DNA from: Pelagomonas calceolata
Lineage: Eukaryota
NCBI GenBank assembly: GCA_918797485.1
Contig: CAKKNE010000005.1
Coordinates: forward strand, 4,154,001-4,218,000
Reading direction: 5' to 3'
Length of the DNA stretch: 64,000 bases
Every line of letters starts with the position of its first letter. Position 1 is the first letter of the stretch. Below are positions 4,846 through 62,432 of this stretch, one piece after another. The notes beneath the pieces were generated by a model. That model did not search any database. It saw nothing but the letters and a program-made list of their open reading frames with translations, and was not told the origin of the DNA. The position numbers and the translations under genes are program-made.

Positions 4846-4990
4846 TTGTAATCGCTGGAGAGCCATAATCTGCGATGGCACTGGATTAGGGCAGGCCGAC
4901 GATGCGTATTGTGTTAATAAGGCTCACGGCTTACTTGTGCAAATGCAAGTCGTGAGTTGGTGGGCTGCTAGTGTGTTACAGACCGCTAGC
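4846..4990 (+). repeat. Diverged direct repeat, copy A (promoter-like)
   Basis: Blocks ATCTGCGATGGCACTG, GACGATGCGTAT, TAAGGCTCACGGC, TGCAAGTCG and GCTAGTGTGTTA are shared, in the same order, with 11643..11862. Confidence 0.85.
4967..4990 (-). promoter_or_regulatory. Recurrent promoter element
   Basis: gctagtgtgttacagaccgctagc. Confidence 0.75.
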
Positions 4991-5615
4991 TCGAGACGAA
5001 TGCGCGAGTGGCCGTCACAGCATAGATGATGTGGCGAGCGACGCGTCGGGAGAGTACTGCCCGGTGGTCGTCTCATCGATCGAAAATCGGACGTCGTCGC
5101 GCGGCCGTCGTGGACGTCGCGAAATCGGAAGAAGACCATCCCGTCGCCGCGAGCTGTCTAAGTAGCCATCGCAGTCCTCCTCGTCGCCTCGTAAGCCGTG
5201 GCGCGGGGCCACTGAGCCCAAAAGTCAGACCGCGCGCGCGGCGTCGTTCTAGCTCGACAAAAACGCCACAAAACACCGTCCGGACGCCCGCGCCTAAAGT
5301 ATCACGCGTCGCGCAGGGTAGACCTCTTCACGTGCGACCGCCAGAGGCCAAAAATCGCGCGCGAAGAGCGCGCGACCGACGCCCAAACGCTGTAAAGCTC
5401 TGGACACACTTTCGCGACAACGCGGCGTACGGGGCCGCGCCGCGCGTCGCCCGCCGCCGTACGCGGCGAGACGGCCGCCTGTACCCCCACGCGAGCCGGA
5501 CGCGCCCCCGACGCAGGCCGCCGACGCCCGCCGTCCGTCCCGTCGCCTCGAAGTTCGCCAGGACGACCTCCTCCTCCTCACAAGGTGCCGCCGCGTAGCC
5601 CACAAGCCCGCCAAG

Positions 5616-6221
5616 ATGAAGTCGAACTCGATCATCGCCCTCGCTCTACTCGCGCGCGCCGTGGTGGCCGTCGCGCCGCGGGCCGCCGCGCGGGACCCGG
5701 TCCTGCCGACGTGGGATCCTGCCCTGCCGCCGCCCGTGCCCGCTAGATACCACCACGCCTGGCAGACCCTACTGGGTGTGTGGGGCACGGTGAAATTGGT
5801 AGCTCCATGTGTCTACCGCGAGGCGCGCGCCGTCAGCAGTGTCCTCCTGTGTCTCATCGCGTGGGTGCTGGACTTCGGCCGCGATGCGCTGGAGGCCCTC
5901 GGGATTCCGGTGAGTCTTGATGGCGTCTTCTTTGCCCTCCTCGTGGGCGCGTTGGTCTACAAGGCGCGGTCCGTACTCTTAGCCTTCCTCGCGTACCTCC
6001 GGTCCGTGATCATGAGCGTCGGCCCGCAGCTCCTCAGCTACTACATGACGATGCACCCGCCGCTCCGCGACCACGCGATCCCCTGCCTGAGGGCGTTCCG
6101 CTTCTTCGTCGCTTCGTTCTTCCCCAAGCACAAGGAGGCCGCGGACGCGCTCGCGGACGACGTCGAGATGGGACTCCGCGAGGCGGTGGGGCTCGGCGAG
6201 TCGGGCGGCGGGCAGGACTAG
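5616..6221 (+). CDS. Hypothetical membrane protein with signal peptide
   Basis: ATG-initiated 201-aa ORF with strong GC3 bias and hydrophobic segments. Confidence 0.65.
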   Translation: MKSNSIIALALLARAVVAVAPRAAARDPVLPTWDPALPPPVPARYHHAWQTLLGVWGTVKLVAPCVYREARAVSSVLLCLIAWVLDFGRDALEALGIPVSLDGVFFALLVGALVYKARSVLLAFLAYLRSVIMSVGPQLLSYYMTMHPPLRDHAIPCLRAFRFFVASFFPKHKEAADALADDVEMGLREAVGLGESGGGQD

Positions 6222-8064
6222 GTCGCTTACGACGCGCGCGCGCCGTCCTTCTCCCACTCTTTTGTTCGCGCGTCTTCCTCGGAATCCTCCCCGCCCCGTC
6301 GTCTGCATAAGGTGGACCTACTTCGTTCCTTACGCGAGCCTTTGAAGCGGACTGGACGAGTACCTGCCGGTGATGCGAACAGGACGAGTCGGCCGTCGCA
6401 GCGCGACGACGGCGTCGGTCATCACGGGCGGGCGCCAGCGCGCGCCAGTCGCGGCGCTGGCGCCGTCCAGGTCGCCGCGCCTCGTGGTAGCTCGGGCGCC
6501 CGCGACCTCGGCTCGACCTCGGATGTTCGAAGTAGTAGCACTACGCCGTCGGCGCCGTGGCGGCAGGCTTTGACGGCGTACAGCGCTTACTTAGAGTGCT
6601 CTAGTTGAGGACCGCCGACGGCTCTACGAGGGCTTCGCGCCGCACGAGGGCAGCGCCTCAGATGCGGCCCGCGACAGCGAGAGGGGCACGTCGTCCAGGC
6701 CCACGAGGCGCGTACGGTCGACTCGTCGTCATCGACGTGCCGTATACGCTCAATCGACGGGCGCTCCGAGTCGGAGAGAGGAGCTCCACGTCATCGCTGT
6801 CGCGGCGGCGTGCATGCTCTGGGGTAGGTTCCGCTAGTGGCCGATTCGCGAGCGGAAGTCCGTCGCAGAACGTGCGCTAACCTCGGGCGCTGACGCGGTG
6901 ACACGTCTGCCCTCGGTGCGCAACTCTCGGGCGCCTCTCGCATGATGAGGCGCTGCCGCGGCGGAGTTTGAGCGACGACCGCTATCACGAGTGCCGCGAG
7001 TGTTTTTGCTGGAGGTATGCCCCGATCCTCCGGCACCACTAAATGAGCGTGACGCCGAATGCGCGCCGCGAGGGCTGCCTGGCATGTGCAGCCAGAGTTC
7101 TATTGTGGAGCAGCTACGGGCGCCTGCAAGCTGCACGAACTGTAGTGCTGCTCGTACCGTTAGAATGAACTCTCCTCGCACGAGTTCTATTCATCGCAAC
7201 GGCCTCGCTACTGCGCACGCCGCCAGCGCTCTGCCTGATGATGTGCTGCTGCAGACTCCAGAGAGAGCCATTAGTACTGGATGGCCACAGTACGTTTCGG
7301 GGAGGAAGCGGTCGGCTCGGATTGGTGAGGAGATCGCTTTTTTCGTGCGGGTTGCACCGCGAGCAGCCAAAGCACAAAAGCTAAACGAGCTCTGCCATTG
7401 AGGGGCAGCCCCTCTGACATAGCAAGCTCGTCAAGAGGCTCACAGCAGCCCTCAACTGCCGTGCGCACCATCACAATGGATCCACGAGCCGCACCCGCGG
7501 CTCGGGCATGCTGAAATCACCGGAGCAAAACCCGCGCCCTTCATCGGCGTGGTCAAGCCTCCGGCGGCCGTAAAAAGCCACCACATCGAAGAATAACTGG
7601 CGCGCCGCCGCGTACGTATCACGCCCTTCATCGTTGGCCAGGCTTGGCTCTCAGCTCACCTGAGGCCCCAAGGGTCAGCTTGATAGCTTATGCCCCTTTG
7701 CGCGGCGCGCGGCGCTGCGCGCCGGCCGCAGCCGCAGCGCGGACGCGCGGAGACAAAATAACGGCCGTCGACCGCACGGCGCCTCTCTGAGAGCCCTTCG
7801 CGCGTCGAGCGGCGCGCCGAGCGCTAATCGCGTCCGTCCGCGCAGATCAAACAAATCGCACTACATCTGCTACCACATCCCCTACTACTTCATTCACATT
7901 TACTACAACATCACTACATCATTTCCTCGACCTCTACAGCTAGCATTAGATCTGCAAGGCCAAGTAGAGCTCGAAGGCCACTCAGGTAAAACACCTGTTA
8001 CATCAACCAAGAACTCGTGACGGTGCTGCGCGAAGCACCACTAGTTCGCCCGCCCAAGCGCACG

Positions 8065-11642: not shown

Positions 11643-11862
11643 TTGTAAACGCTGGAAACATGCTACCATCTGCGATGGCACTGATATTCTTTCAGCCCGT
11701 GACGATGCGTATCGTGTTTTAAGGCTCACGGCGTGTGTGCGTGCAAGTCGAGGGGCCGATGTTACGTGCAAGTCGAGAGCTGGCTCAGGCTCAGGCTAGT
11801 TACGTCGCGGGGTCCCCCGTACCCCTCCCAGCTGGTTGCTAGTGTGTTAATACGACGCTAGC
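11643..11862 (+). repeat. Diverged direct repeat, copy B (promoter-like)
   Basis: Homologous to 4846..4990, with an internal duplication of GTGCAAGTCGAG and GGCTCA x2. Confidence 0.85.
11838..11862 (-). promoter_or_regulatory. Recurrent promoter element
   Basis: gctagtgtgttaatacgacgctagc. Confidence 0.7.
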
Positions 11863-19531: not shown

Positions 19532-19542
19532 TGAATGTATGT

Positions 19543-20979: not shown

Positions 20980-20998
20980 AGCCCTAAGTACATGTTCA

Positions 20999-29611: not shown

Positions 29612-29634
29612 GCTAGCGGCAGTAAGACACTAGC
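29612..29634 (+). promoter_or_regulatory. Recurrent promoter element (divergent promoter)
   Basis: gctagcggcagtaagacactagc. Confidence 0.8.
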
Positions 29635-31250: not shown

Positions 31251-31255
31251 TTTTA

Positions 31256-33656: not shown

Positions 33657-33680
33657 GCTAGCGGCCTGTAAGACACTAGT
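33657..33680 (+). promoter_or_regulatory. Recurrent promoter element (divergent promoter)
   Basis: gctagcggcctgtaagacactagt. Confidence 0.8.
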
Positions 33681-35940: not shown

Positions 35941-35963
35941 GCTAGCGTCCGTAAGACACTAGC
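35941..35963 (+). promoter_or_regulatory. Recurrent promoter element
   Basis: gctagcgtccgtaagacactagc. Confidence 0.8.
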
Positions 35964-42692: not shown

Positions 42693-42716
42693 CCTAGCGG
42701 TCAGTAAGACACTAGC
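42693..42716 (+). promoter_or_regulatory. Recurrent promoter element
   Basis: cctagcggtcagtaagacactagc. Confidence 0.78.
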
Positions 42717-44684: not shown

Positions 44685-45650
44685 TTATTTAATCGGCTCG
44701 CTTCGTTTTCCGAACATTTCCTCTCGATCCCTAGCAACGCTACACGTCGTGAACGGCCGCGAGCAGTTCGGTGATAACGCTCGCGCCGCCTCCACCAACG
44801 CGGCGTCATCCATATCGACCCAGAGGCTGCGGCAGGGCCAGGCTCTCAAGTTCTGCGTCGCGGACAGTTCGGAGGAGAGCACGTCCGCGAGACGCCAGCG
44901 GGACGCGTCCAGGGCGTCGATCGACGCGTCCGCCGCTTGTAAAGCTCGAAGGACCGGCGCGAAGGTCCGCTCGCCCTCGTCTAACAGGTCGGGCGCGACT
45001 TTAATGCCGACGAAGGACAGCAACCGCTCCGTCGTCAGGCGCCGTTCCACGACGTCCAGCAGATCAGATGCTGATCTCACTGTAAGTTGGGCCGTGTGTG
45101 CCGCGACGTGAGACACGCGGCAGTGCCACCGGACGTGCTGCGCGAGGCTCTCGGCGGCATTGCCTTGCGACGACGCCGCGACCGACGAGAGTAACGGCAA
45201 GGCGAGCCGCACGATCCGCGTGTACCCGTGGTTCTTGCCATACCCATAAGGCGGCGCGTGCGCCGTCTGTATCCATTCGACCTTGCGCGCCGTGGCGCCG
45301 CCCCGCTTCGCTAAGGCAACGTACCACGCGAAGAACGCGTCGGCGGCTTGCGAGGGAGGCGCCAATAGAGCGATTCTTGCCTCTGCTTTCGAGCCCTTCG
45401 GTGTGGCCGTGTAGCAGGCCGCGCCTAAACAACTCCGCAGCGTCTGCTCGAAGGCGGCCTCGTTCGGGAGTTTATGATTGCTCTCTGGCACGGGCTCGAC
45501 CGCTTCTTCGAAGCTGGGTTTGACGCGCGGCCAGAAGATCTCGCCCAAACCGGCGCCTGTAACTATGCTCACGACGACGGCTATTAACAGTCGCTTGTCG
45601 CGGTGCTTCAGAATCCCTTGCTTGGCAGAGCGCGCGTAGACGAGCTCCAT
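44685..45650 (-). CDS. Hypothetical type II membrane protein
   Basis: N-terminal TM helix; PPYGYGKNHGYTRIVR segment; coding bias. Confidence 0.6.
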   Translation of the reverse strand: MELVYARSAKQGILKHRDKRLLIAVVVSIVTGAGLGEIFWPRVKPSFEEAVEPVPESNHKLPNEAAFEQTLRSCLGAACYTATPKGSKAEARIALLAPPSQAADAFFAWYVALAKRGGATARKVEWIQTAHAPPYGYGKNHGYTRIVRLALPLLSSVAASSQGNAAESLAQHVRWHCRVSHVAAHTAQLTVRSASDLLDVVERRLTTERLLSFVGIKVAPDLLDEGERTFAPVLRALQAADASIDALDASRWRLADVLSSELSATQNLRAWPCRSLWVDMDDAALVEAARALSPNCSRPFTTCSVARDREEMFGKRSEPIK

Positions 45651-45875
45651 TGATTCTTCTTCCTTATGGCGTTTTTTTCTTCGTTGTGCCGCGCGCGGCG
45701 GGTGTATTTGTGCAAAAAGCTGTCTATGCTCTCGCAGCTGTGCTGCGGCTACAGGGCGTGTGGCGGCTCGAAGGCCGTAGCACGCTTCGAAGGCGTGAAT
45801 ATGGGGCTGACGAATCTGTCGCGACGGATCAATTAGGCTCTGTATCACGCAAAATCTGCTGCGGCAGGGCTTGCT

Positions 45876-45899
45876 GCTAGTGTCTTACATGCCGCTAGC
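45876..45899 (-). promoter_or_regulatory. Recurrent promoter element (divergent promoter)
   Basis: gctagtgtcttacatgccgctagc. Confidence 0.8.
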
Positions 45900-46053
45900 T
45901 CCGCCCAAGCCGCGGCGCCGCTACGCGCCCTGAAGCGCATACTGCTTGCCGCGCTGGCTGGAGGGTTCCAAGGCTTCCTCCTACTTCGCGCTGCAAGCGT
46001 GCCGGCTGCACCGCACGCCTCTCACACTGCCAAAGCAGCTATCACCAAATCCC

Positions 46054-48429: not shown

Positions 48430-48482
48430 GCTCTTTTTAACGCATCGCACCGTTTTACTACACACCATATTTACAATAACTA

Positions 48483-49130
48483 CTAGCCGGCGACGACGCT
48501 GTCCGTGCACCAGCACCCAGAGACGGCGTAGCCCTCGTCGCCCGCGTCGGTGACCACCGGCTGTTTGGACAGAGAGAACGTGTACTCGATCACGGGCGTC
48601 TGCACAGCGAACGGCGCCGACGACCCGCCCGCCGGGAAGACGCGCACGCGCGCCGCCTTGCGCTCGTCGTCGCCGAGCATGCCCACGAACTCCCAGCGAG
48701 AGCACGCGAGCATCGGCCTGCGCGCGGCGCCGTGACGGCGTGCTGAGAACTACTTCCGCCGCGACGCCATCGCCGCGACGGCGTCTACTGGACGGACGCC
48801 GCCTTGCTACCTATACTCCGGGTTTTGTTCTATCATAGCTTTGAACCGACGCCAGGGGCCCGTAACTTGTTTATTCGCGGGACTCGCGAACTTGAAGGCC
48901 CGCATCGCGTCGCCGGCCTGCAGGGCATTCATTTGGGCGGTGACGACGTCTTCGGCCGACGCGCTCGGCTTCGGCCGGCGGATGTCGGCGCTCGCGGCTT
49001 CGAGGAAGCCGCCGTCTTCTGAGTGCAGTGGTGCCGCACGACGACGCGGTGCCGGCGCGACAAACGCTGCTATTCGGGACACCAGCAGCAGCACGAGGCT
49101 GTAGCGCCGAATGCGCGGCACCTCCAGCAT
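48483..49130 (-). CDS. DUF4864-like (NTF2-like) protein, probably plastid-targeted; 2 exons (intron 48718..48810)
   Basis: AEDVVTAQMNALQAGDAMRAFKFASP...FKAMI...EYR|PML; signal peptide ending IAA-F. Confidence 0.65.
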
Positions 49131-49242
49131 TTTCGCTCGGCAAAACTAATCAGCACTCTGTCCGCTCGCTGCGTCTTCACTGCGATGATAAATGATGCCC
49201 GTATGGCCGCGCACGGCGACGAAAACTCAGCGCTGCCTGCTT

Positions 49243-49266
49243 CCTAGTGTGTTACAGGACGCTAGC
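49243..49266 (-). promoter_or_regulatory. Recurrent promoter element (divergent promoter)
   Basis: cctagtgtgttacaggacgctagc. Confidence 0.78.
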
Positions 49267-49390
49267 TGCGTTTGCGGCTCGAGCATCGACGCGGCGCGCT
49301 TGTACGCCATCGGCGAGGCAGGTCTGCACGCTATTGCAGCCGTGCCTCGGTCAGCGACCAGTGCGCAACCGCTCGGAAGCAACCAGAGAC

Positions 49391-52300
49391 ATGGCAGCAA
49401 CCACTGCCAGCGAGGCGGTGCGCGTCACGCTCTGCAAGTCGCGCCGCCCTTTGTTAAGGCTCGACGTGGCGCCCTTCGCACTCATCTATGCTCTATTACA
49501 CGCATACGCCTGGATTTCGTTAATGAACGGCACGATATCGTACGAGACGCTCGCGTGCATCCCCGTCGCGCTCGCCGCGCACCTACTCCTCTTCCTGAGC
49601 ACGCGCTGGTCCGTTAGAATCAGATGCTGGGTCGCCTTTAGGACATGCGATCATAAGGATGCGACGCACGCGCTGGCTTTGTCGTCGACGGCCGCGCTCT
49701 GCGAATTAAAAGAGGAGGCACCTAGAGGCCGCTTCTTCTCATTTCAACGTAGAATATACGTCCAAGACGGTCCTACCTGGCGACCACATGCACCAAAGAC
49801 CCAGAGACCGCTCGCCGAGCTAGCACAGTGTACAGGATTGGAAACCAACGAGCAAGAAACGACACAAAGGAGGAGCTGGGGCCCCAACGCCTTCAACATC
49901 GAGGACCCGACCTTTTCCGAATTATTCGAGGAGCACTACCTGGCGCCGTTCTTCGTGTTCCAGGTCTTTTGCTGCGTTTTGTGGAGTTTAGACGAGTACT
50001 GGGTCTATTCGGCGTTCACGCTCGTTATGTTGTTATTATTTGAAGCTACTCTATGCATACAACGACTAAGAAACCTGGAACAGTTGCGAAGCATGCGGCG
50101 GCCCGCGCGGTTACTGTATGCCTACAGACAAAAAAAGTGGCGGCCCGTCATGTCCGACGACCTGCTACCGGGCGACGTCATCGCCCTCTCTTCTACTCAA
50201 AGACGGAAGGACCCGATACCCGTGCCCTGCGACTGCTTGTTGCTAGGAGGCTCGGCCGTGGTCTCAGAGGCGATGCTTACTGGTGAGAGCGTGCCCCAGC
50301 GCAAGGAAGGGTTAATCGATGCTGATTTAACTACAACGCTAGACGTCGACGGTGGTCATCGGAAGCACGTCCTGTTCGGGGGCACGGATTTGCTGGATGC
50401 GAGTCGTGGAGACAGCACGAGGTCTACACCCCCGAACGGCGGCGTCGAAGCGTTGGTGCTAAGGACGGGCTTCGAGACCGCACAAGGTTCACTCATGCGC
50501 ACGATCCTCTTCGCGACGGAGCAGGTCACTGGTAGCACGGAAACCGGAAAGTTTATTGGCGTGTTACTTATCTTCGCCGTCGTAGCCGCTCTCTACGTCC
50601 TCCAAGAGGGTCTGAAGGACCCGAGGAGAAACCGCTTCAAGCTCGGGCTCCACTGCATCCTCATCATCACGTCCGTCGTGCCGCCCGAGCTGCCGATGGA
50701 ATTATCTCTCGCGGTAACAAATTCCTTGCAGGCCTTAGGTCGCTCGGGCATCTTCTGCACGGAGCCCTTCCGCATCCAGTTCGCCGGCTCCGTCGACGTC
50801 TGTTGTTTTGACAAGACCGGAACACTTACCAGTGATGAATTGACGGCGCGCGGCGTCGCGTTTTCATCTGAGTTCATTGATGATAGAGCGAACCTACCAG
50901 CCGACACGTTGCTCGTGTTAGCGAGCTGCCACGCCGTTTCTAGAGGTTCAAATGGGTTGCTCGGCGATTCGCTCGAAAGGGCGCAGCTCCAATTTGCGGG
51001 TGTGGACCGTCCTGACAAGGTCCGCGTCCTGAAGCGATACGGCTTTTCGTCGGAGCTGCGCAGGATGACCTGCGCCTGCGCGCAAGGCGCTTCTACGGTT
51101 GTTACTTGCAAGGGCGCGCCCGAAGCGCTGAGGCCGCTCCTCCGAGACGTGCCGGCCGATTACGACGCGTTGTACGAGCAGCACGCGTCGAGGGGCATGA
51201 GGGTGCTCGCTTTAGCTTCTCGGGCCGTATCAAGTCAAATGGATTGGAAGAGTGTCGAGCGTTCGACGGCCGAAGCTGATCTAATCTTCCGGGGTTTCCT
51301 GTGTTTGACCTCGCCGCTCAAGCCCGGAACCAGAAACGTCATCCAACACCTACAAGCGTCCGGCCACAAGTGCGTTATTATTACGGGCGACAACGTGCTG
51401 ACGGCGGCGCACGTCGCGCGGTCGGTGGGCATTCTGGGCGATGACCAAACGTGGGTCTTGACGGCGAACGGCGAGTCGCCGGTCTGGCGGTCAGGTAATA
51501 GCGTAAAGCCCTTCGCGGCCGCACCTTCACAAGGCTTGTGCTGTCGCGGCGACGCCCTCGCGTCGTTATCTGAATTACAGGTCGCGATCGTCGCGTCGCG
51601 CTGTTCGGTATTTGCTCGATTCTCGCCGAAGCACAAGGAGAAGATCGTGGACGCCCTTAATAAGAGAGGCGTCACGACTTTGATGTGTGGTGATGGGACG
51701 AACGACGTGGGCGCGTTGAAACGAGCTCACGTCGGCGTGTCGATCGCGAACGCGCCGGAGCTCGAGAAGCGACTACCTTCTACGTCGGAAGACGTCGCGA
51801 CGATGAGGAAAACTTTAGCTGATGCGGAGCTATCGCTCTCGGACCAGGACCCGTCCCTGGTTCGATTGGGCGACGCCTCCATAGCGTCACCATTTACCTC
51901 CAAGAGAGCTACCATAGAATGTGTCTTAGCCATCGTGTGTCAAGGCCGGTGCACGCTCGTGAGCATGATCCAGATCTTCAAGATTCTGGCCGTCTTATGT
52001 CTCGTCTCGGCGTACATGCTGTCGTCGTTGTATTTGCACGGTGTGAAGCAAGGAACTGAGTGGAAATCAAATTTCGGGCACCCACGCCATCGACGCGACG
52101 TTGTCCCCGTGGCCGCGTCGGGTCGATGGCGTGGAGGCTCACTAAGGTTCACGCGAATGACCTAACTCACTGGTTGATTTCCACACAGGCAAGGTGATGC
52201 CCAGATGACCGTGTCCGGTATCTTGACGGCGGCGCTGTTCTTCTTGACGTCGCGGGCGAATCCCCTCGAGACGCTGTCGAAGAAACGGCCGCCTCGAGGC

Positions 52301-55551: not shown

Positions 55552-56469
55552 ATGCCACCAACACCCAAGACGCCGGCCGACCAGCCGACGGGCGCGCCGT
55601 CGCCGTCGCCCGACAGCGAGCGCTACGCGGCGCGCGCCGCCGCGCCCAAGGCCGTCGCCCGTTTATATTCGGAGAGCCGGGTAGCGGAAAAGCGCGCGAA
55701 CCAAGCTGAACGGGAAGCCACATCCTTGAGACGGACGATCGACGCGTCGTCGGAGATCGCCAGGAGACGGAACGCGCTGCTGCGGAACGGCGGCTCCTGG
55801 CTCCAGCGCGGCGGTGGTGATGATGGCGCCGAGGCGCCCAAGGGCGGCGTGCCGCTCCCGGGGCTGTCCGAGGTCGGACCACCACCACCACCCTCCCAGG
55901 ACGCGTCGCCCTTACCGGCCCACATCGAAGAGCGCCTGCGCCAGCTCCAGCTCCCCGACGCCTGGGCCGGCGAGGTTAGGGATTTGATCCAGCAGTCGCG
56001 CGACGAGGCGCAACGTGACGTCGTCGACGTGGAGTTCGACGTCGACGCCACGCCGCCGCCGTCGCCCGAAGGCGAGGTCTGGCCGTCGTGGACGTCGCCG
56101 CACAAGACGACGTCGCCCGCCAAGCTCTGGTCGCCGCGGCGACCGCCTCCAAATAGTCCCGAGCGCGAGCGGCCCTCCCAGGACGCGCCGCCCGGTCGTG
56201 TATGCGCGCCGCCGGCCCTCCGCGCGACGCGGACCGTGGAGTTGAGCACCGTCGAGGACGACCCCGAGGACGCTGACCGGGCCGTCGTCGTGCGCCAGGA
56301 CTCGACGGAGTACGGCTCGTCGATCTTCTGCGGGTGCACGTCGGGCTTCGGGGCCCAGACGGAGGAAGCGCCGCCTCCCGAATCATCGTCGTCGACGATC
56401 TTCTGGAAGGACCTCGTGCGGAAGCCGTCGCGCGACGCGGCCTGGGCGGGCGAGGACCCCTACGCGTAA
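55552..56469 (+). CDS. Hypothetical protein (paralogue of 57939..58682)
   Basis: Shared SEIAxRRNxxLRxGGxxL and PLPxxxExRL motifs. Confidence 0.6.
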   Translation: MPPTPKTPADQPTGAPSPSPDSERYAARAAAPKAVARLYSESRVAEKRANQAEREATSLRRTIDASSEIARRRNALLRNGGSWLQRGGGDDGAEAPKGGVPLPGLSEVGPPPPPSQDASPLPAHIEERLRQLQLPDAWAGEVRDLIQQSRDEAQRDVVDVEFDVDATPPPSPEGEVWPSWTSPHKTTSPAKLWSPRRPPPNSPERERPSQDAPPGRVCAPPALRATRTVELSTVEDDPEDADRAVVVRQDSTEYGSSIFCGCTSGFGAQTEEAPPPESSSSTIFWKDLVRKPSRDAAWAGEDPYA

Positions 56470-56503
56470 TACTTTGGAATTTCATACACAGTTACACACA
56501 ATG

Positions 56504-57751
56504 TTAAAATTTAGTGTCCGGGAAGATGCCTTGCTGCCGTGCTTTTTCGCACAGTGATCGGGCCTCGGCAGGGGTTATCAACATGATCTCACCCCTGCGC
56601 GCCCTGTAGTCTGCGTCGGTCAGCAGCCCCTTCGATCGGAGGTTCTCGAGGCCTTGTAGCGACACAATGTGGAAAATGCTCAAGGAACCCATGCTACACG
56701 TTTTCGAATGCCCGGCTCCCCAGTCGGCGAGCTGACAATTCTCGTCGCAGTAGCGCCTTCGCCCGCAATAGCACACCGGCAATCGCGGCTCGGCGATGCT
56801 GCCCTGCCAGCCGCAGAAGTCGCATAGTCGGCGCTGGCGCCGCCGCTTGGCTTTGTTCCTGAGGTTCCGCATCATCTCACGCATAGAAAAGCCTTTAACT
56901 TCCACTCGTTGCTCGCGTAATGCCAGTATTGCTCTTGATGTTATCTGGAGGTTGTTGCAACCAGATGATACATCGAGAGACGTTAGGTTTGGTAGTCCGT
57001 CGATATCGAGCGCCTCTATCGAGTCGCATCCAGCAACAATCAGCGCCTTGAGCGCTCCCAGCCCGGCTAATGCGCCTAGCCGAAGGGCTAAGCTCGAGCA
57101 GCCTCCCAGGATGAGAGTCTTCAGCGCCCCGAGCTCATTGAGCCTGTCTGGTAACGCGCTGAGGCTCATACAGTTGGCCAGAGAGAGAGCCCTCAAGGCC
57201 TTGAGCTCGCCGATCGTGCTGGGAATTCTCTGAAGTACGGAACAGCACGTCAAGTCGAGGATTTGTAGCCCCCCGAGGTCACCAATTGCGTCCGGTAATG
57301 AGGCGAGCCTTACGCACCCTGTCAGGTTGAGATAATTGAGCGTCCTGATTTCACCGATCGCGTCCGGCAGAGCGACGAGGCTCGAGCACCCTTCCAACAC
57401 GAGCGACTCAAGCGACTTGATCTCACCGATCTCGCCCGGCAGAGCAGCGAGTTGCTTGCAATGGCTTAGGTTGAGTTCTATCAGGGGTCTTGGGGAGCTA
57501 TTCCACGAGCCGATGGAGGCAGGTAATGCAGTCATGCTGCACCCGCTGAGGTCGAATTTCCAGGTATTCATCAACTCATCCCCATGCATCCTCCCGCCGA
57601 TTGCGTCTCTCGTGAGCTCGGGGCAACTCCGCTGTAGATCTAGCATGTTAATGAAGCACCGGCCTTTGTCTGTCCGCAGCCACGCTTCATGCTCCGCCTC
57701 GCGCTGCTTGCGGGCAGCTTTATTCTTCGGGTTGGGACGTCGACGAGGCAT
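56504..57751 (-). CDS. LRR and MYND zinc-finger protein with SHOCT-like tail
   Basis: 24-aa LxxLxLxGCxxLxxLPxxIG repeats; CDFC...CYC...YCDENCQLADW...HSKTC; LENLRSKGLLTDADY. Confidence 0.85.
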   Translation of the reverse strand: MPRRRPNPKNKAARKQREAEHEAWLRTDKGRCFINMLDLQRSCPELTRDAIGGRMHGDELMNTWKFDLSGCSMTALPASIGSWNSSPRPLIELNLSHCKQLAALPGEIGEIKSLESLVLEGCSSLVALPDAIGEIRTLNYLNLTGCVRLASLPDAIGDLGGLQILDLTCCSVLQRIPSTIGELKALRALSLANCMSLSALPDRLNELGALKTLILGGCSSLALRLGALAGLGALKALIVAGCDSIEALDIDGLPNLTSLDVSSGCNNLQITSRAILALREQRVEVKGFSMREMMRNLRNKAKRRRQRRLCDFCGWQGSIAEPRLPVCYCGRRRYCDENCQLADWGAGHSKTCSMGSLSIFHIVSLQGLENLRSKGLLTDADYRARRGEIMLITPAEARSLCEKARQQGIFPDTKF

Positions 57752-57830
57752 CGGGCTGCTCGTTCTGCGGGTGTTGTCCCTTTGCGGGCAGCCCGCCAAC
57801 CGAATAACAGGCTTTGGCCGAGCAAGCCGA

Positions 57831-57855
57831 GCTAGCGTCCCTAAGACACTCTAGC
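57831..57855 (+). promoter_or_regulatory. Recurrent promoter element (divergent promoter)
   Basis: gctagcgtccctaagacactctagc (2-nt insertion). Confidence 0.72.
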
Positions 57856-57938
57856 TGCGTCCGAAGGCTCGTTCCTGCCGCCGTATACGCACCAGGGGCA
57901 GCCCGAGCCCTCGTCGAACTAATAAAGGAGCCGCACCG

Positions 57939-58682
57939 ATGGCCGCCAAGCGGGTCGCGAACACGAAGTGGCCCCCGTCACCGACGCAAGTGAAGCCAGG
58001 CGAGACGGCCGGCAAGCCGGACCTGGGCGGCCTCTACGAGGAGAACCAGCGGTTGAGGAGGGAGAAGGCGCAAGCTAGGAAGGAAGCCGCAGCGCGAGCG
58101 CGCGAGCTCGAGGCGCGCTCGGAGATCGCGCAGCGACGAAATAGTTTTTTGCGCGCCGGCGGTGGGTTTTTGAAGGGTGTCCTCGAGGGGCGCACGAGCC
58201 CCACGGAACCGCCGTCCACGCCGCCTCCTCAACATTGCCCTTCATGTAAAGAGCGGCTGCCCTGCTCATGCACGGAGCCGTTGCCACCGGGCGTCGAAGC
58301 TAGACTACAACGCATGGCCATGGACCCCGAGCTCGACGCGTCGGTGCGCGCGTTGGTCGCCGACGCGTACTCGACGAAAAATCTTGATGGGGTCGTCGTC
58401 GCGACGCCGGCGGATTCTTCACCACAGTTGGAAGCAAGGTTGAGGAGGTGCGAGGACGTTTTGAGGATGGTCGAGATCGCGCGGAGGGAAGGAAGGCGGC
58501 CGCCGAAGCGCGCCTCCAAAACAACGAACACGCAGTCGCCGTCGTCCTGGGTTGGTTGTTTATCACCCGACTCGATGTGCGAGGGTGTTGATTGTGGTGA
58601 GTACGACTGCACGGGTACGTTGCCCGACGACGAGTCCGAGGGTGTGCGGTGGGGGGAAATATTCGGTGTAAGCGAAGATTAG
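57939..58682 (+). CDS. Hypothetical protein (paralogue of 55552..56469)
   Basis: Shared motifs with 55552..56469; coiled-coil N-terminal part. Confidence 0.6.
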   Translation: MAAKRVANTKWPPSPTQVKPGETAGKPDLGGLYEENQRLRREKAQARKEAAARARELEARSEIAQRRNSFLRAGGGFLKGVLEGRTSPTEPPSTPPPQHCPSCKERLPCSCTEPLPPGVEARLQRMAMDPELDASVRALVADAYSTKNLDGVVVATPADSSPQLEARLRRCEDVLRMVEIARREGRRPPKRASKTTNTQSPSSWVGCLSPDSMCEGVDCGEYDCTGTLPDDESEGVRWGEIFGVSED

Positions 58683-59860
58683 TTACTACTAGGCGCCGGC
58701 GTCTCACCCATATTGAGGCACTCCGGCGCCGCGGCGAAGTTGAGGCACTGGCGGCACGTCGGACACCGGTTCGACCGCTTGAGCCAGGTCCGCAGGCACT
58801 CCCGGCAAAAGCGGTGGCCGCAGCCCGCTTCCACCGAGGCGTCCCCGAAATTTTCTAAGCAGATTGGGCACGTCCCCGGCGGGGCGGGTGCTTTGCCCAA
58901 ATTGGCGCTGTTCCGTTTTAGGGCCTGCATGATACCTGCTCCGGCCTCGCCGATCGCCGCCGCGTCCGCTTCGGCGGCTCGAATCATAGCCTCGGCGGCC
59001 GGGTCGCCGGTCAACCTCAGCACTAGGCCATAATTCGCTCGACTAGTTGCGAGTTGCCGCTTCGCCTCGCTGGACTCCGGATAATAATTTGCCATAGCTA
59101 TCCGCGCGTCGAGGGCCCGTTTGAGGAGCGACTTGGCCCGCCTGGCGTCGGATCCGGGCGTCGCAAGCATAGACGTCGCCTGGTTCGCCCACGCCGAGGC
59201 CCGCGCCGCGACGAGGCGCGTGGCTTCGGCGCCCGGCAGCGCGCCCGGTCCGCGGCGCGCGCCGCCGCTAGCGATCGCCTCGTCCGCCCGCGCGGCGGCC
59301 GCGGCGAAGAGCTCGACGGCCGCCGCGGCGCCGTCTATCGCCCTTACGACGTTGGCGGCGCCGACCATGCACTCGACCGCGTCCGCCGGCACGTTCGCGG
59401 CTTTTGCGGAGGTTACGCCCGCCGCGTACGCGGCGAGCGCGGCATCATAGTCTTTCGCCATTTGCCTCGCCCGTCCCATGGCGAGGTAGGCCGCGCTTCT
59501 CCGCTTGACGCGCTCTTCCGGCGGCAGCTTGTCCGCCTTCGCGATGGACGTCTCGAAGAGCTTGGCCGCTTTTCGAGGCTCCCCGGCGTCCATGGCCTGG
59601 ACGCCGGAATCGAAGTAGCACACCGGCGCGTGCGCCCGTGCATGAGAAGCTTGGCACTCGCGCGTCGCGTAGCGCGCCGTCTTGCAGCGGCCGCAGCGCA
59701 TCGACGCGACTCTGCCGCAGCCGCAGGCGCAGAGCTGTCGCTTTTTGGGCTGCGGTTTGGGCGGCGGTTTCGGTGCGGTCTTGCGTCGGTACCGTAGGTA
59801 GTACCAAGCTGCGGCAGCCAAGGCGGCGCCTGTGGCGAGAAGGGCCGGCTTCGACGCCAT
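58679..59860 (-). CDS. Membrane-anchored MYND, TPR and RING-finger protein (probable E3 ligase)
   Basis: N-terminal TM; CGRCKTARY...CQ..H; TPR-like helices; CPICLE...CGHRFCRECL...CPTCR. Confidence 0.82.
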   Translation of the reverse strand: MASKPALLATGAALAAAAWYYLRYRRKTAPKPPPKPQPKKRQLCACGCGRVASMRCGRCKTARYATRECQASHARAHAPVCYFDSGVQAMDAGEPRKAAKLFETSIAKADKLPPEERVKRRSAAYLAMGRARQMAKDYDAALAAYAAGVTSAKAANVPADAVECMVGAANVVRAIDGAAAAVELFAAAAARADEAIASGGARRGPGALPGAEATRLVAARASAWANQATSMLATPGSDARRAKSLLKRALDARIAMANYYPESSEAKRQLATSRANYGLVLRLTGDPAAEAMIRAAEADAAAIGEAGAGIMQALKRNSANLGKAPAPPGTCPICLENFGDASVEAGCGHRFCRECLRTWLKRSNRCPTCRQCLNFAAAPECLNMGETPAPSSN

Positions 59861-59863
59861 CGC

Positions 59864-60088
59864 TTATCGCCCGCGCTTGTTCAGCGTCGGCGTGCCCTTG
59901 CGCGGCCGCTTCGCCTTGCGGTTGTGGTGGCTCACGGCGCGCTTCCCGCGGTTGGCGGCGCGCGGCACGCGTGCGTTCCGGTTCATGCGCAGCACGTCGA
60001 AGGACGGCAGCGCGGTGGCAATCAGGAGCAGGGGCAAGCTCCAGAGCTCGGCGTTCGACCGCGTGGCGGCGAGGAGGCGGGGCCACAT
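59864..60088 (-). CDS. Small basic protein (74 aa), possibly mitoribosomal
   Basis: MWPRLLAATRS presequence-like start, then Arg/Lys-rich MNRNARVPRAANRGKRAVSHHNRKAKR. Confidence 0.5.
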   Translation of the reverse strand: MWPRLLAATRSNAELWSLPLLLIATALPSFDVLRMNRNARVPRAANRGKRAVSHHNRKAKRPRKGTPTLNKRGR

Positions 60089-60175
60089 GTACCGTTCACA
60101 CTGATGCCCTGACGGTGCGAAACCGGTCCGGTAGTGCTCGTGCGGCACCAATGCGCTGCGCCGTCGGCTGATCGA

Positions 60176-60198
60176 GCTAGCGTCGAGAGACACTAAGC
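60176..60198 (+). promoter_or_regulatory. Recurrent promoter element, degenerate (divergent promoter)
   Basis: gctagcgtcgagagacactaagc. Confidence 0.55.
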
Positions 60199-60321
60199 TT
60201 GCAGCCGCATCGGCGAAATCGGTCATAACGCACGCTAGAGGCAGCGAGAGCACACGACGCAGCGTATTTGTCGTCGCGCACATCATACGCCACCATAAAG
60301 CACGCAATCGCCGCACAAAAC

Positions 60322-61245
60322 ATGGCAGCGATGGAGACCGACGAGGTGAGCCTCCCGCAGGCCCTCGCGGCCGTCCAGGCGTCGTTCGCCGACGCGCCGG
60401 CGAACGAGCAACAAGCGCGCCAGTGGGCCGAAGGACGAGGCTACGACTGGGGCGACTCTGAAACTTTGTTAGCGCAGTTCCTGCAGGGCGAGGCCCGGTG
60501 CGAGACGCTGAGGAAAGCGAGAGAGCACAAGAAGGGCGAGGTCCAGCGAGCGGGCGTGCAGGCGCGCGCGAACGCCCTGGCGGCGGAGCTCGGATGCACG
60601 GAGCCCCTCGAGACCGAAGCCGCTCTAGCTTACTGTGAAAAAGTCGTCCAAGAGAAGGGCGCTTCGAACTTGACGGCCGACCCGCCGTCACAACCGCCCG
60701 CCGCGGAGCTGAAGAAGCTCGAGGCGATCCACGACGCGCTGCGGACGGACTTCGCGCTGCGAAGGAGGATGCTGCTAACGCGGTGCGACGTGACGATGCA
60801 GTCCTTTTTGTGGGGCGACGCCGCGGAAGGTCGGGAGCAGACTATTGTGGATAGCGTCTATGCTGAAAGAGCGTCGTTGAGCACGGAGCCGCCGCCGTAT
60901 TCTGTACAAGACGCGCTGGCCACGTCAAAACAACGCATCGACCGCATGGAGAGCGCCCTCGCGACGCCGTTGAACACGAAGGACCAGCAGTCGGCCATGA
61001 AGACCGTGGTCATCGGCGCCGTGCCCAGTCGAGGAGGCAACATCCGCGACAAGCGGCCGTCGCAAAAAGACATCATGCCGTCGTGGAAGAAGCGCGAGGA
61101 GTCCACCGGCAAAGGTAAGGGTGGTGGCCGGGGCCGCGGCAAGGGCGGGCGCGGGGGTGGTCGCGGCGGCGGGCGCGGCGGCGGAGGCAAGAAGAAAAAG
61201 CAGAAGAAAGACAATAAAAAGGGTGGGGGTGATAAAAAAGAGTAG
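60322..61245 (+). CDS. FAM98: FAM98-family protein
   Basis: DFALRRRMLLTRCDVTMQSFLW, VVIGAVPSRGG, RGG-rich tail. Confidence 0.85.
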   Translation: MAAMETDEVSLPQALAAVQASFADAPANEQQARQWAEGRGYDWGDSETLLAQFLQGEARCETLRKAREHKKGEVQRAGVQARANALAAELGCTEPLETEAALAYCEKVVQEKGASNLTADPPSQPPAAELKKLEAIHDALRTDFALRRRMLLTRCDVTMQSFLWGDAAEGREQTIVDSVYAERASLSTEPPPYSVQDALATSKQRIDRMESALATPLNTKDQQSAMKTVVIGAVPSRGGNIRDKRPSQKDIMPSWKKREESTGKGKGGGRGRGKGGRGGGRGGGRGGGGKKKKQKKDNKKGGGDKKE

Positions 61246-61247
61246 TG

Positions 61248-62303
61248 TTAGCTTACAAGGAGCTGGGCCGTCTGCACGCACAACATGAGCGCCGTCACGT
61301 GCTGCGTGTGGTCGTAGAAGGCCCAGGACTCGACCGGCTCGCGCAGCGCGGCGACACCGTGGGGCACCAAGCCTATCGAAACGAGCACCGGCGCGCCGCC
61401 CGTTAATCGATCGTCGGACACCGTTTGAGCAACCCACGCCAGCACCGCCGCGCAGGCCGGGAGCACGACGCAGACGGACCACCGGTAGGCGCGTCGTATG
61501 CCATTTTCTCCCAGTAGGATCGCGACCGTTCTGAGGCCCGGCACCCGAGCGTCCGTTTTGGCGTCGCGGACGTTGAAACAAAAGTTCGGATAGGCCCGCA
61601 GAAGCGCCGCGACGGCCGAGGCGCCCACAAATTTCGGCGACAGCGGATTTACATCAAGCGCCACGAGCGCCAGCAGCGCATTGAGACACATAGCCCACAC
61701 GAACAGACATACTTCGCCGAGCGCGCGGTACTTGAATTTCAACGGCGGCGTCGAGTAGCCAGCCAGTAGGAAAGAGGTAGTAGTGCACAGGAGCGTCGCG
61801 GCGACTTGTGAGCGACAGCGCCGCACGACGCAGATACCCAGAATGGTCGTAATAAGTCCCATGCTGCGCGTCTGCCGCGTTACCTTTTGGAGCGATACTT
61901 TGCCCTCGGCCAGTCGCTTGTCGTCACCCTCGTTGCCCGCGACTTTGTCCGCGCCCAACTGAAAGTCCCACCACAGATTCAGGCCGTTCGCCCAGAATAA
62001 TTGCATGAGCCCGAACAACGCCACGAGCGCGCACGCGTCGAGGGCCGGCCGGCTGCCGAGGTGCCGCGCGGCGACGGTTGTTTGTGCTATTGTGCCCAGC
62101 ACCAAGTCGGCGCTAAACCATCGGCCCGTCTTGCAGAAATCTTGGAATTGCTGCGGAGCGAGGTTGCCGAAGGCCGCAAATGCGAGTAGTGTGCGGCCGG
62201 CTGCCGTGCTCGTCAGGAAGCCATCCGCGCCGCTGCAGACCAGCCAGAGCACTATGAGGGATTCGATGCTCACGAGGAGCTGGTGGGCGCGCTTCTTGGC
62301 CAT
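61248..62303 (-). CDS. UbiA-family prenyltransferase (MenA/UBIAD1-like)
   Basis: NLWWDFQLGAD, YSTPPLKFKYRALGEV, NVRDAKTDARVPGLRTVA. Confidence 0.8.
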   Translation of the reverse strand: MAKKRAHQLLVSIESLIVLWLVCSGADGFLTSTAAGRTLLAFAAFGNLAPQQFQDFCKTGRWFSADLVLGTIAQTTVAARHLGSRPALDACALVALFGLMQLFWANGLNLWWDFQLGADKVAGNEGDDKRLAEGKVSLQKVTRQTRSMGLITTILGICVVRRCRSQVAATLLCTTTSFLLAGYSTPPLKFKYRALGEVCLFVWAMCLNALLALVALDVNPLSPKFVGASAVAALLRAYPNFCFNVRDAKTDARVPGLRTVAILLGENGIRRAYRWSVCVVLPACAAVLAWVAQTVSDDRLTGGAPVLVSIGLVPHGVAALREPVESWAFYDHTQHVTALMLCVQTAQLLVS

Positions 62304-62409
62304 TGTATGGGGCGCTGCGACTTTTTAAATGATCGATGCGGTGCGAAATGGGGCCGCGCAGGGCACGACGGGCGAAATGGGGCCGCGGGGCAGCCTTCAC
62401 GCAGAGCTT

Positions 62410-62432
62410 GCTAGTGTCTTACATACGCTAGC
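62410..62432 (-). promoter_or_regulatory. Recurrent promoter element (divergent promoter)
   Basis: gctagtgtcttacatacgctagc. Confidence 0.8.

What the first reader, a model, noticed from the sequence alone, without database searches (positions are those of the whole stretch)
4967..62432. Recurrent 23-25 bp promoter element GCTAGCG-N3-5-TAASACACTAGC
Seen: 11 copies. Forward orientation at 29612, 33657, 35941, 42693, 57831, 60176; reverse at 4967, 11838, 45876, 49243, 62410. A weaker candidate lies at 23435 (tctagcacgtctatgacctagc). Every copy is intergenic and lies ~50-270 nt upstream of at least one ATG. Eight of 11 sit between head-to-head genes, and none is in a CDS, intron or convergent junction. 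Apart from the 4967/11838 pair, the flanks are unrelated, which argues against a transposon remnant. Structure: NheI palindrome, variable spacer, asymmetric TAAGACAC core, closing CTAG. The flanking genes are functionally unrelated (BCS1, Myb, P5A ATPase, FAM98, MenA-like). Inference: binding site of a general, possibly bidirectional promoter or nucleosome-positioning factor, analogous in role to ZNF143 or yeast Reb1/Abf1. I know of no description of this motif in algae.
Basis: partly seen in the sequence, partly recalled or inferred. Interest (0 to 1): 0.85.

Follow-up and report, generated by a model that had tools for sequence, protein, structure and literature searches.

The report
Two-way promoter motif in pelagophyte algae
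A nearly invariant 28-30-base DNA word sits in the untranscribed gap just upstream of many genes in this stretch of a marine pelagophyte alga and in over a hundred marine metagenome contigs; it is likely the docking site of an unknown protein that would set where transcription starts in both directions.

Summary
All 11 copies are at the stated coordinates and strands. Nine have at most 1 mismatch; 57831 and 60176 are degenerate. Shuffles give none at up to 2 mismatches. The 23435 candidate is not recovered.

The extended consensus is (G)A-GCTAGCG-KCCT-GTAAGACACTAGC-AAGC. It is bipartite, with an indel-tolerant spacer. A metagenome scan gave 124 more instances in at least 122 loci, all with unrelated flanks. 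They have no target-site duplication and no half-site standing alone.

Stranded poly(A) RNA-seq shows that the RNA strand flips at the motif. RNA 5' ends pile up 17-38 nt from either motif edge at 9 of 11 mapped positions. Two divergent start pairs lie about 80 nt apart with the motif between them. Motifs avoid convergent junctions: 2 of 43 metagenome cases and 0 of 3 in the window.

Orientation relative to the gene does not matter significantly (16 against 9).

Best reading: an orientation-independent promoter element, likely the binding site of an unknown factor. Binding and function are untested. My six literature searches found no description of it.

It is a new member of a known kind and moderately interesting.

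The parts
4967..4990 (-). Motif copy, exact, TAACACAC variant. Lies between a - ORF (ATG 4786) and a + ORF.
11838..11862 (-). Motif copy with a 6-nt spacer, TAACACAC variant. Tandem context, oriented against the only gene that heads away from it (+ ORF, ATG about 12241).
29612..29634 (+). Motif copy, exact. Upstream of BCS1 (ATG 29826); a divergent - ORF lies on the left.
33657..33680 (+). Motif copy with 1 mismatch (last C is T; the RNA-seq strain reads C). Divergent promoter of a - gene and the Myb gene. A + RNA 5' end lies at 33794.
35941..35963 (+). Motif copy, exact. Tandem context, upstream of the ferredoxin-like gene (ATG 36075).
42693..42716 (+). Motif copy with 1 mismatch (first G is C). 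Tandem context, upstream of the metallophosphoesterase gene (ATG 42934).
45876..45899 (-). Motif copy, exact. Divergent promoter. A - RNA 5' end at 45838 lies 38 nt past the motif's 3' edge; the S1-domain gene lies on the right.
49243..49266 (-). Motif copy with 1 mismatch. Divergent promoter. - RNA 5' ends at 49226 and 49209 lie 17 and 34 nt past the motif's 3' edge; the P5A-ATPase gene lies on the right.
57831..57855 (+). Degenerate copy (CT inserted in the right half). It lies in the 80-nt gap between - RNA 5' ends (57804, also 57769) and + RNA 5' ends (57884/57886).
60176..60198 (+). Degenerate copy (4 mismatches). It lies in the 79-nt gap between a - RNA 5' end (60139) and + RNA 5' ends (60218-60226).
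62410..62432 (-). Motif copy, exact. The RNA strand flips here: - RNA (UbiA gene) on the left, + RNA with 5' ends at 62453 and 62468 on the right.

Best explanation
The element is a real, sharply bounded, bipartite 28-30-bp DNA motif that lies in the untranscribed gap of gene promoters, and it is likely the binding site of a still unknown sequence-specific protein that would keep the promoter open and place transcription starts about 20-40 nt from either edge.

Shown directly:
- The consensus is (G)A-GCTAGCG-KCCT-GTAAGACACTAGC-AAGC, with 1-2 nt of play in the spacer.
- The two halves never occur apart.
- The flanks are unique.
- The motif lies at gene 5' ends, often between head-to-head genes.
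- The RNA strand switches at the motif, and RNA 5' ends lie just outside it on both sides.
- Orientation relative to the gene does not matter significantly.

Inferred:
- A protein reads it. The length and the flexible spacer suggest two DNA-binding modules or a multi-finger protein.
- The bound factor would act like a general regulatory factor, excluding nucleosomes and nucleating pre-initiation complexes in both directions at TATA-less promoters.
For: Over-representation: 5 strict hits against 0 in shuffles, and 9 core hits against 0.16 expected.

Independent instances: 124 in at least 122 marine metagenome loci.

Information profile: positions not fixed by the search pattern are also conserved. 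These are G before TAAG (117/124), A after CTAGC (99/124), the next A (89/124) and A before GCTAGCG (67/124). Information falls to about 0 within 4 nt outside the element.

Halves always together: 137 of 137 right halves have a left half within 16 nt. GCTAGCG alone is not enriched (19 against 12.2 in shuffles; 10 of the 19 lie in full motifs).

Context: of 43 metagenome instances with predicted ORFs on both sides, 20 are divergent, 13 tandem with the motif, 8 tandem against it and 2 convergent. P for 2 or fewer convergent is 5e-4; P for 20 or more divergent is 2e-3.

Composition: AT skew flips sign at the motif and GC dips to 0.53-0.57 across the 124 instances. The sense strand is on average A-rich.

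RNA-seq (four runs of one sample): the strand of coverage flips at 57831, 60176 and 62410. 5' end pile-ups lie 20-31 nt and 21-37 nt from the edges. Others lie 17, 34 and 38 nt from 49243 and 45876.

No conserved TATA-like or initiator position at a fixed distance from the motif.

By my reading of the bins, 9 of 10 promoter gaps in the 26.8 kb covered by RNA hold a copy. The three convergent junctions hold none.

Two orthologous locus pairs at about 80% nucleotide identity keep the motif while the surrounding spacer DNA has diverged.
Against: - No protein binding, chromatin or mutational data exist here.
- Two of 11 mapped 5' ends are further away: 62 nt (57769) and 114 nt (33794).
- Pile-ups also occur inside genes at coverage gaps (59071, 59158), so a pile-up alone is not a start site. 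I rely on those that coincide with strand-coverage boundaries.
- The four RNA runs come from one sample, and only 6-12% of each run was read.
- The motif is not universal. By ORF prediction, about 7 of about 15 divergent junctions in the window lack it. One of these, at about 40.1-40.28 kb, is confirmed by RNA.
- The orthologue comparison is biased, because both partners were found through an exact motif match.
- Gene context in the metagenome loci rests on a home-made codon-usage score. 4 of 124 instances fell inside a predicted ORF.
- No whole genome was available, so genome-wide frequency is an extrapolation.
Confidence: 0.6

Rival explanations
1. A core promoter element in the strict sense: a lineage-specific substitute for the TATA box, read by the basal machinery itself (a TBP/TFIID variant or a SNAPc-like complex). 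It would fix initiation at a set distance on both strands.
For: - The motif edge lies 17-38 nt from 9 of 11 mapped RNA 5' ends, which puts the motif centre at roughly -30 to -50, where TATA or PSE elements sit.
- Divergent start pairs lie only about 80 nt apart, with the motif in the middle.
- No TATA-like conserved position nearby.
- Very high prevalence: 9 of 10 promoter gaps in the RNA-covered stretches.
Against: - Classical core elements are directional. This asymmetric motif shows no significant orientation preference (tandem cases 16 with, 9 against; p = 0.23).
- It serves starts on both sides.
- Two 5' ends lie at 62 and 114 nt.
- About half of the divergent junctions in the window lack it.
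- A 28-30-bp word is far more specific than any known basal-factor site.
Confidence: 0.25
2. A boundary, insulator or replication-origin site: a protein-bound landmark between genes whose main job is not transcription initiation.
For: The motif is long, very specific, intergenic and orientation-independent, with about one copy per 6 kb in the window. CTCF-type and ORC/ARS-type sites are of this sort (from general knowledge).
Against: - It avoids convergent junctions: 2 of 43 and 0 of 3 in the window. A generic boundary or origin element should also occupy these.
- The close spacing to RNA 5' ends on both sides points to initiation.
Confidence: 0.07
3. A tiny mobile element, solo terminal repeat or transposon excision footprint that accumulates in open promoter DNA without any function.
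For: - The copies are nearly identical.
- GCTAG and CTAGC at the two ends are inverted repeats.
- The variable middle could resemble a repair junction.
Against: - No target-site duplication at any offset in 120 instances.
- No instance of the halves apart that could be a donor element (0 orphans of 137).
- The flanks are unrelated.
- The interior is asymmetric and is not two inverted termini.
- The motif is kept at orthologous promoters of lineages about 20% diverged (with ascertainment bias).
- RNA starts lie at a constant distance.
Confidence: 0.03
4. A transcribed signal: a 5'-UTR element, a 5' splice site (the motif contains GTAAG) or a small structured RNA.
For: GTAAG matches a 5' splice-site consensus (from general knowledge). 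A 5-bp stem (GCTAG/CTAGC) is possible.
Against: - RNA 5' ends lie outside the motif on both sides, and coverage changes strand there.
- No splice joint at any motif. Only one joint is listed in 56400-63300 and it lies elsewhere.
- Folding is no better than shuffles (z from -0.05 to -1.25).
- Variant copies break the stem without compensation.
- No Rfam match in the window.
Confidence: 0.02

Closest known systems
Yeast general regulatory factor sites (Reb1, Abf1, Rap1) in nucleosome-depleted promoter regions (from general knowledge, not from a call)
   Same: Abundant sequence-specific sites in the promoters of functionally unrelated genes. They are often shared by divergent gene pairs and work in either orientation. 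The Abf1 site is also bipartite with a non-conserved spacer.
   Different: - The sequence is unrelated.
- This motif is much longer (28-30 bp, about 19 nearly invariant positions).
- Its spacer varies in length.
- It sits closer to the starts, 17-38 nt from its edge.
- No binding protein is known.
Vertebrate ZNF143 (SBS) and similar promoter-proximal sites of bidirectional CpG-island promoters (from general knowledge)
   Same: A long (about 18-20 bp) motif read by a multi-zinc-finger protein, located tens of bp upstream of starts and enriched at bidirectional promoters.
   Different: The sequence is unrelated. The organism is a stramenopile alga. Prevalence is far higher in the stretches examined (9 of 10 promoter gaps covered by RNA). 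A zinc-finger reader is only my guess.
Oomycete INR+FPR and DPEP core promoter elements (Roy et al. 2013, PMC3599244; abstract and outline read)
   Same: Lineage-specific promoter elements of TATA-less stramenopile promoters, 16-19 nt long and found genome-wide in a sizeable fraction of genes.
   Different: INR+FPR spans the start site and DPEP lies about 25 nt downstream of it. This motif lies upstream of the starts, is untranscribed and serves both directions. [quoted passage not shown]
Drosophila housekeeping promoter motifs (DRE/DREF, Ohler Motif 1/M1BP) and Trichomonas M3/M3BP
   Same: Short sequence-specific elements that define a large class of TATA-less promoters through a dedicated DNA-binding protein.
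   Different: Those motifs are 6-12 bp long and mostly directional or fixed in position. The sequences are unrelated.

Membership tests
Promoter cis-element bound by a sequence-specific factor (general-regulatory-factor type) | An over-represented, sharply bounded motif with unrelated flanks | tested here: met
Promoter cis-element bound by a sequence-specific factor (general-regulatory-factor type) | Confined to 5' intergenic DNA; avoids coding sequence and convergent (3'-3') junctions | tested here: met
   - 2 of 43 metagenome cases are convergent.
- 0 of 3 convergent junctions in the RNA-covered window hold a copy.
- 0 of 11 window copies lie in an ATG-initiated CDS.
- 4 of 124 metagenome instances lie inside a predicted ORF.
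Promoter cis-element bound by a sequence-specific factor (general-regulatory-factor type) | Lies upstream of mapped transcript 5' ends, in the untranscribed gap | tested here: met
   Seen at 33657, 45876, 49243, 57831, 60176 and 62410. No 5' end was listed for 29612, 35941 or 42693.
Promoter cis-element bound by a sequence-specific factor (general-regulatory-factor type) | Works in either orientation | tested here: inconclusive
   Tandem cases: 16 with the gene, 9 against (p = 0.23). RNA starts lie on both sides. This shows placement only, not activity.
Promoter cis-element bound by a sequence-specific factor (general-regulatory-factor type) | A protein binds it, and mutation changes transcription or chromatin | not testable with these tools
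   Needs pull-down, footprinting or reporter assays.
Directional core promoter element (TATA/Inr/PSE class) | Fixed distance and fixed direction to the start site | tested here: inconclusive
   Distance is 17-38 nt for 9 of 11 5' ends; two lie at 62 and 114 nt. Direction is not fixed: starts lie on both sides and there is no orientation bias.
MITE, transposon remnant or excision footprint | Target-site duplication, terminal inverted repeats, homologous flanks or donor elements | tested here: not met
   No TSD in 120 instances. 0 orphan halves of 137. Unique flanks. Only a 5-nt inverted match at the ends.
Structured or transcribed RNA element (Rfam family, hairpin, 5' splice site) | Is transcribed, folds better than chance, shows compensatory changes or splice joints | tested here: not met
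   Rfam gives 0 matches. Fold z-scores run from -0.05 to -1.25. RNA 5' ends lie outside the motif and no joints occur at it.
Oomycete INR+FPR core element | A 16-19-nt block that spans the transcription start site | tested here: not met
   The motif lies 17-38 nt upstream of the starts. The definition comes from the abstract of PMC3599244.

The most novel reading that the evidence does not exclude
The motif is itself the core promoter of a large class of pelagophyte genes. On this reading it is a 28-30-bp, orientation-free TATA substitute, read by a lineage-specific factor that seeds two opposed pre-initiation complexes and fixes both start sites about 40 bp from its centre. Thousands of genes in one of the ocean's most abundant picoalgae would then share a single, almost invariant 'start here, both ways' signal.
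Probability: 0.3. Interest if true: 0.75.

Novelty: new member of a known kind. Interest (0 to 1): 0.6.

Why it matters
Pelagophytes include globally abundant open-ocean picoalgae and harmful bloom formers, yet none of my searches found any description of their promoters.

- **Promoter architecture.** A single, very specific word marks a large share of the promoters and sits between start sites only about 80 nt apart. That makes a clean natural system for asking how a compact eukaryotic genome builds two-way, TATA-less promoters.
- **Finding the factor.** The motif is an obvious bait for isolating the protein that reads it.
- **Genetic tools.** It is a ready-made part for synthetic promoters in a group that still lacks such tools.
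- **Metagenomics.** It is a sequence tag that flags pelagophyte-like contigs. About five such contigs appear inside bacterial and archaeal MAGs.

Tried and rejected
- **Whole genome.** None is held for the window, so no genome-wide scan was possible.
- **Earlier notes of this scan.** Nothing on this genome or this sequence. The word searches gave only other genomes.
- **Taxon from the protein atlas.** Uninformative. I used named relatives instead.
- **Viral contigs.** 0 matches.
- **Prokaryote genomes.** 11 matches in 596 Gb. By my arithmetic about 26 are expected by chance. About 5 of them, at 60-63% GC and with the extended consensus, look like misbinned algal contigs.
- **A 77-kb MAG contig.** I hoped it would serve as a second algal test region, but it holds only one core match, so I dropped it.
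- **Longer metagenome records behind the loci.** Not held.
- **Orthologues of the window's own motif sites.** None found. The only locus match at a motif (L032 at 11838) turned out to share a separate short repeat, not orthology.
- **Hairpin or cruciform.** Folding is no better than shuffles.
- **Rfam.** Nothing at gathering score. At 4700-5010 there is only a chance-level miRNA hit (E = 0.077).
- **Splice-site reading of GTAAG.** No joints at the motifs.
- **Transposon or footprint reading.** No TSD and no orphan halves.
- **Candidate at 23435.** Not recovered.
- **Fixed-distance TATA or initiator next to the motif.** No conserved position beyond 4 nt outside the element.
- **Literature.**
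  - Motif strings: primers only.
  - Pelagomonas with promoter and motif; pelagophyte promoter; Aureococcus promoter motif; Pelagomonas with transcription start site: nothing relevant.
  - The Pelagomonas calceolata genome paper (PMC9481584) has 0 occurrences of 'motif', 'promoter', 'upstream' or 'intergenic' in its main text. I did not look at its supplements.


Full report

Yes.

The strict pattern GCTAGCG-N3-5-TAASACACTAGC occurs 5 times in the 64-kb window, against 0 in 100 dinucleotide-preserving shuffles. The 12-nt core with at most 1 mismatch occurs 9 times, against 0.16 expected.

Printing all listed sites in motif orientation shows the 11 copies at the stated coordinates and strands.

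A bipartite scan (left block, 2-7-nt spacer, right block) gives:
- 6 copies with 0 mismatches;
- 3 copies with 1 mismatch;
- 57831 with 3 mismatches (really a 2-nt insertion);
- 60176 with 4 mismatches.

Ten shuffles gave 0.0 hits at up to 2 mismatches, 0.1 at 3 and 0.6 at 4. Two other 4-mismatch hits (6833, 14412) are at chance level.

**2. Anatomy**

All have unrelated flanks.

Positions that the search pattern left free are nevertheless conserved:

| Position | Base | Count |
|---|---|---|
| Before TAAG | G | 117/124 |
| One position further upstream | T | 88/124 |
| First after CTAGC | A | 99/124 |
| Second after CTAGC | A | 89/124 |
| Third after CTAGC | G | 67/122 |
| Fourth after CTAGC | C | 72/122 |
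| Before GCTAGCG | A | 67/124 |

Information then drops to about zero on both sides. The element is therefore (G)A-GCTAGCG-KCCT-GTAAGACACTAGC-AAGC, about 28-30 bp long.

The part matched by the pattern is 24 nt in 78 instances, 23 nt in 36 and 22 nt in 10. The window adds one copy with a longer spacer (11838).

The halves are not independent:
- All 137 right halves in 294 kb have a left half within 16 nt.
- GCTAGCG on its own is not enriched (19 against 12.2 in shuffles; 10 of the 19 lie in full motifs).

There is also no target-site duplication at any offset in 120 instances. Folding is no better than for shuffles (z from -0.05 to -1.25). Rfam finds nothing in the window.

**3. Where it sits**

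I trained a codon-usage score on long window ORFs and used it to map coding ORFs. Pfam names many of the neighbours: BCS1, a three-repeat Myb, a ferredoxin-like protein, a metallophosphoesterase, an S1-domain protein, a P5A-ATPase, an LRR/MYND protein, a RING protein, DUF2465/FAM98 and a UbiA prenyltransferase.

- No window copy lies in an ATG-initiated CDS.
- The nearest predicted ATG is 52-269 nt away for 10 of 11 copies and 379 nt away for 11838.
- Eight copies lie between head-to-head genes and three (11838, 35941, 42693) are in tandem contexts.

In the metagenome set, 43 instances have predicted ORFs on both sides:

| Arrangement | Count |
|---|---|
| Divergent | 20 |
| Tandem, motif pointing with the gene | 13 |
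| Tandem, motif pointing against the gene | 8 |
| Convergent | 2 |

Against a 25% expectation, P for 2 or fewer convergent is 5e-4 and P for 20 or more divergent is 2e-3. 4 of 124 instances fell inside a predicted ORF.

Distances from the motif to the first ATG have medians of 173 nt downstream (n = 48) and 180 nt upstream (n = 46).

Averaged over the 124 instances, AT skew changes sign at the motif, from about -0.1 upstream to about +0.1 downstream. GC dips from about 0.66 to 0.53-0.57. Sense strands of Pfam-supported window genes are on average A-rich (7 of 10 positive). The flip therefore means that genes tend to run away from the motif on both sides.

Orientation shows no significant bias. 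Adding the window's tandem cases (3 with, 1 against) gives 16 against 9, p = 0.23.

**4. RNA evidence**

Four stranded poly(A) RNA-seq runs of one sample, carrying the same organism label as the runs that hold the window's DNA words, were laid on 29500-49400 and 56400-63300.

Pfam-supported genes fix the strand convention: BCS1 (+) is covered by first-mate-on-minus pairs, and UbiA (-) by first-mate-on-plus pairs.

In one search the covered strand flips at each of the three motifs. The 5'-end pile-ups, with their distances from the motif edges, are:

| Motif | RNA strand | 5' end(s) | Distance from motif edge |
|---|---|---|---|
| 57831-57855 | + | 57884/57886 (three runs) | 29-31 nt past the 3' edge |
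| 57831-57855 | - | 57804, 57769 | 27 and 62 nt before the 5' edge |
| 60176-60198 | + | 60218-60226 (three runs) | 20-28 nt past the 3' edge |
| 60176-60198 | - | 60139 | 37 nt before the 5' edge |
| 62410-62432 | + | 62453, 62468 | 21 and 36 nt from the 62432 edge |
| 49243-49266 | - | 49226 (three runs), 49209 | 17 and 34 nt from the 49243 edge |
| 45876-45899 | - | 45838 | 38 nt from the 45876 edge |
| 33657-33680 | + | 33794 (three runs) | 114 nt past the 3' edge |

So 9 of 11 mapped positions lie 17-38 nt from a motif edge. Two divergent start pairs are only 80 and 79 nt apart, with the motif between them.

The three convergent junctions (about 56480, 58675 and 61247) have no motif.

By my reading of the bins, 9 of 10 promoter gaps in the 26.8 kb covered carry a copy. 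The exception is the divergent promoter at about 40.1-40.28 kb. Over the whole window, ORF prediction suggests that about 8 of about 15 divergent junctions carry it.

No splice joint starts at any motif's GTAAG. In 56400-63300 only one joint is listed, and it lies elsewhere.

Caveats:
- All runs are from one sample, and only 6-12% of each run was read.
- Pile-ups also occur inside genes next to coverage gaps (59071, 59158).

**5. How it most likely works**

Shown:
- It is a long, bipartite, orientation-free word.
- It lies in the untranscribed centre of promoters.
- RNA starts lie just outside it on both sides, and there is no TATA-like or initiator position at a fixed distance from it.

Inferred:
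- A sequence-specific protein binds it. Given the length and the flexible spacer, this could be a protein with two DNA-reading modules or many zinc fingers.
- The bound protein would keep the region nucleosome-free.
- It would nucleate pre-initiation complexes in both directions.

I give this reading 0.6.

The main rival (0.25) is that the basal machinery itself reads the motif as a TATA substitute. The remaining rivals are a boundary or origin site (0.07), a mobile element or excision scar (0.03) and a transcribed signal (0.02). Each fails one or more direct tests.

**6. Range**

The window's BCS1 protein has unnamed relatives at 95% and 84% identity. Its nearest named relatives are Aureococcus anophagefferens (61%), Chrysophaeum taylorii (59%) and Aureoumbra (55%). 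The source is therefore a pelagophyte other than Aureococcus.

Its 62% GC matches the 63% reported for Pelagomonas calceolata (PMC9481584, passages read). I did not establish the species.

Two pairs of metagenome loci (L008/L080 and L061/L104) align at about 80% nucleotide identity. They keep the motif, with a 1-nt spacer indel or one spacer substitution, while the neighbouring spacer DNA has diverged. This suggests at least two diverged lineages. It carries ascertainment bias, because both partners were found by exact motif match.

Viral contigs have no match. Prokaryote genomes have 11 matches in 596 Gb, about chance level. About five of them look like misbinned algal contigs.

**7. Comparison and novelty**

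In role, the motif resembles three known kinds of element:
- yeast general-regulatory-factor sites (Abf1's site is also bipartite);
- vertebrate ZNF143-type promoter sites;
- the housekeeping promoter motifs of flies and Trichomonas.

These comparisons come from general knowledge.

Within stramenopiles, the described core elements are the oomycete INR+FPR and DPEP. These span the start site or lie downstream of it (PMC3599244, abstract). This motif lies upstream of the starts.

The sequence matches nothing I could find in print. The motif strings occur only as unrelated primers. Searches on pelagophyte, Pelagomonas or Aureococcus promoters gave nothing relevant. The P. calceolata genome paper does not use the words motif, promoter, upstream or intergenic in its main text; I did not look at its supplements.

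I rate it a new member of a known kind (lineage-specific general promoter elements). Its unusual features are its length, its near-invariance and its central place between closely spaced divergent starts. Interest: 0.6.

Noticed in passing
window 4846-4952 and 11643-11750: A shared segment of about 110 nt (76% identity) lies downstream, in motif orientation, of copies 4967 and 11838. Both copies are the rarer TAACACAC variant. At 11838 no gene follows on that strand, so this could be a duplicated small RNA gene or a duplicated 5' leader.
   Followed up: partly
window 11782-11830; L032 1911-1958; L052 680-725: A short GC-rich element, partly palindromic (GGGGTACGGGGGACCCC type), sits next to the motif. 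It recurs at 91-96% identity in two metagenome loci, close to their motif copies.
   Followed up: partly
window 31740-31942 and 44045-44135: A dispersed repeat that is also present in loci L005, L028, L029, L035 and L043. RNA reads there show very high depth, many 'opposite strands' joints between the two copies and long loose ends. It is probably an expressed repeat family.
   Followed up: no
L009, L022, L050, L073, L095, L099, L115 (also by eye L023, L111): A second conserved word, TTCCAGGGCTCCCGCGYTTAGGAAAT, lies 23-46 nt upstream of the main motif in the same orientation. It is found in at least 7 of 124 metagenome instances. None lies beside a motif in the window.
   Followed up: partly
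whole window: The tetranucleotide CTAG is strongly depleted (234 observed against 428 in shuffles), yet the motif contains two CTAGs.
   Followed up: no
window 33680: The RNA-seq strain reads C where the window has T. This restores the consensus CACTAGC in copy 33657 (table 3; few reads).
   Followed up: no
window 39696 joined to 48762/48763: Many RNA reads join these two places, 9 kb apart, with 14-15 unmatched letters between them (tables 5 and 5c). Unexplained; possibly a shared short repeat or reads from a paralogous locus.
   Followed up: no
window about 40100-40280: A divergent promoter without the motif. The + RNA 5' end lies at 40279/40280, and the upstream DNA is T-run rich. This shows that a second promoter type exists.
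   Followed up: partly
window 58672-58678: Two convergent mRNAs end within about 6 nt of each other, which illustrates how compact this genome is. No intron joints were seen at the listing threshold in 56400-63300.
   Followed up: no
L008 about 1430-1452 and L080 about 600-622: A 22-nt block (CGTTTGCGCTTGACAATTGTCT) is fully conserved between two loci at about 80% identity. It lies about 90 nt upstream of the motif and may be another cis-element or a conserved 5' leader.
   Followed up: no
L123, L124, L129, L130, L133 (contigs filed in bacterial or archaeal MAGs): Contigs at 60-63% GC that carry the extended motif consensus are filed in marine MAGs labelled Spirochaeta, proteobacteria and Poseidoniales. 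They are probably misbinned algal DNA. The 77-kb contig behind L123 holds only one core match, so it may be chimeric or unrelated.
   Followed up: partly
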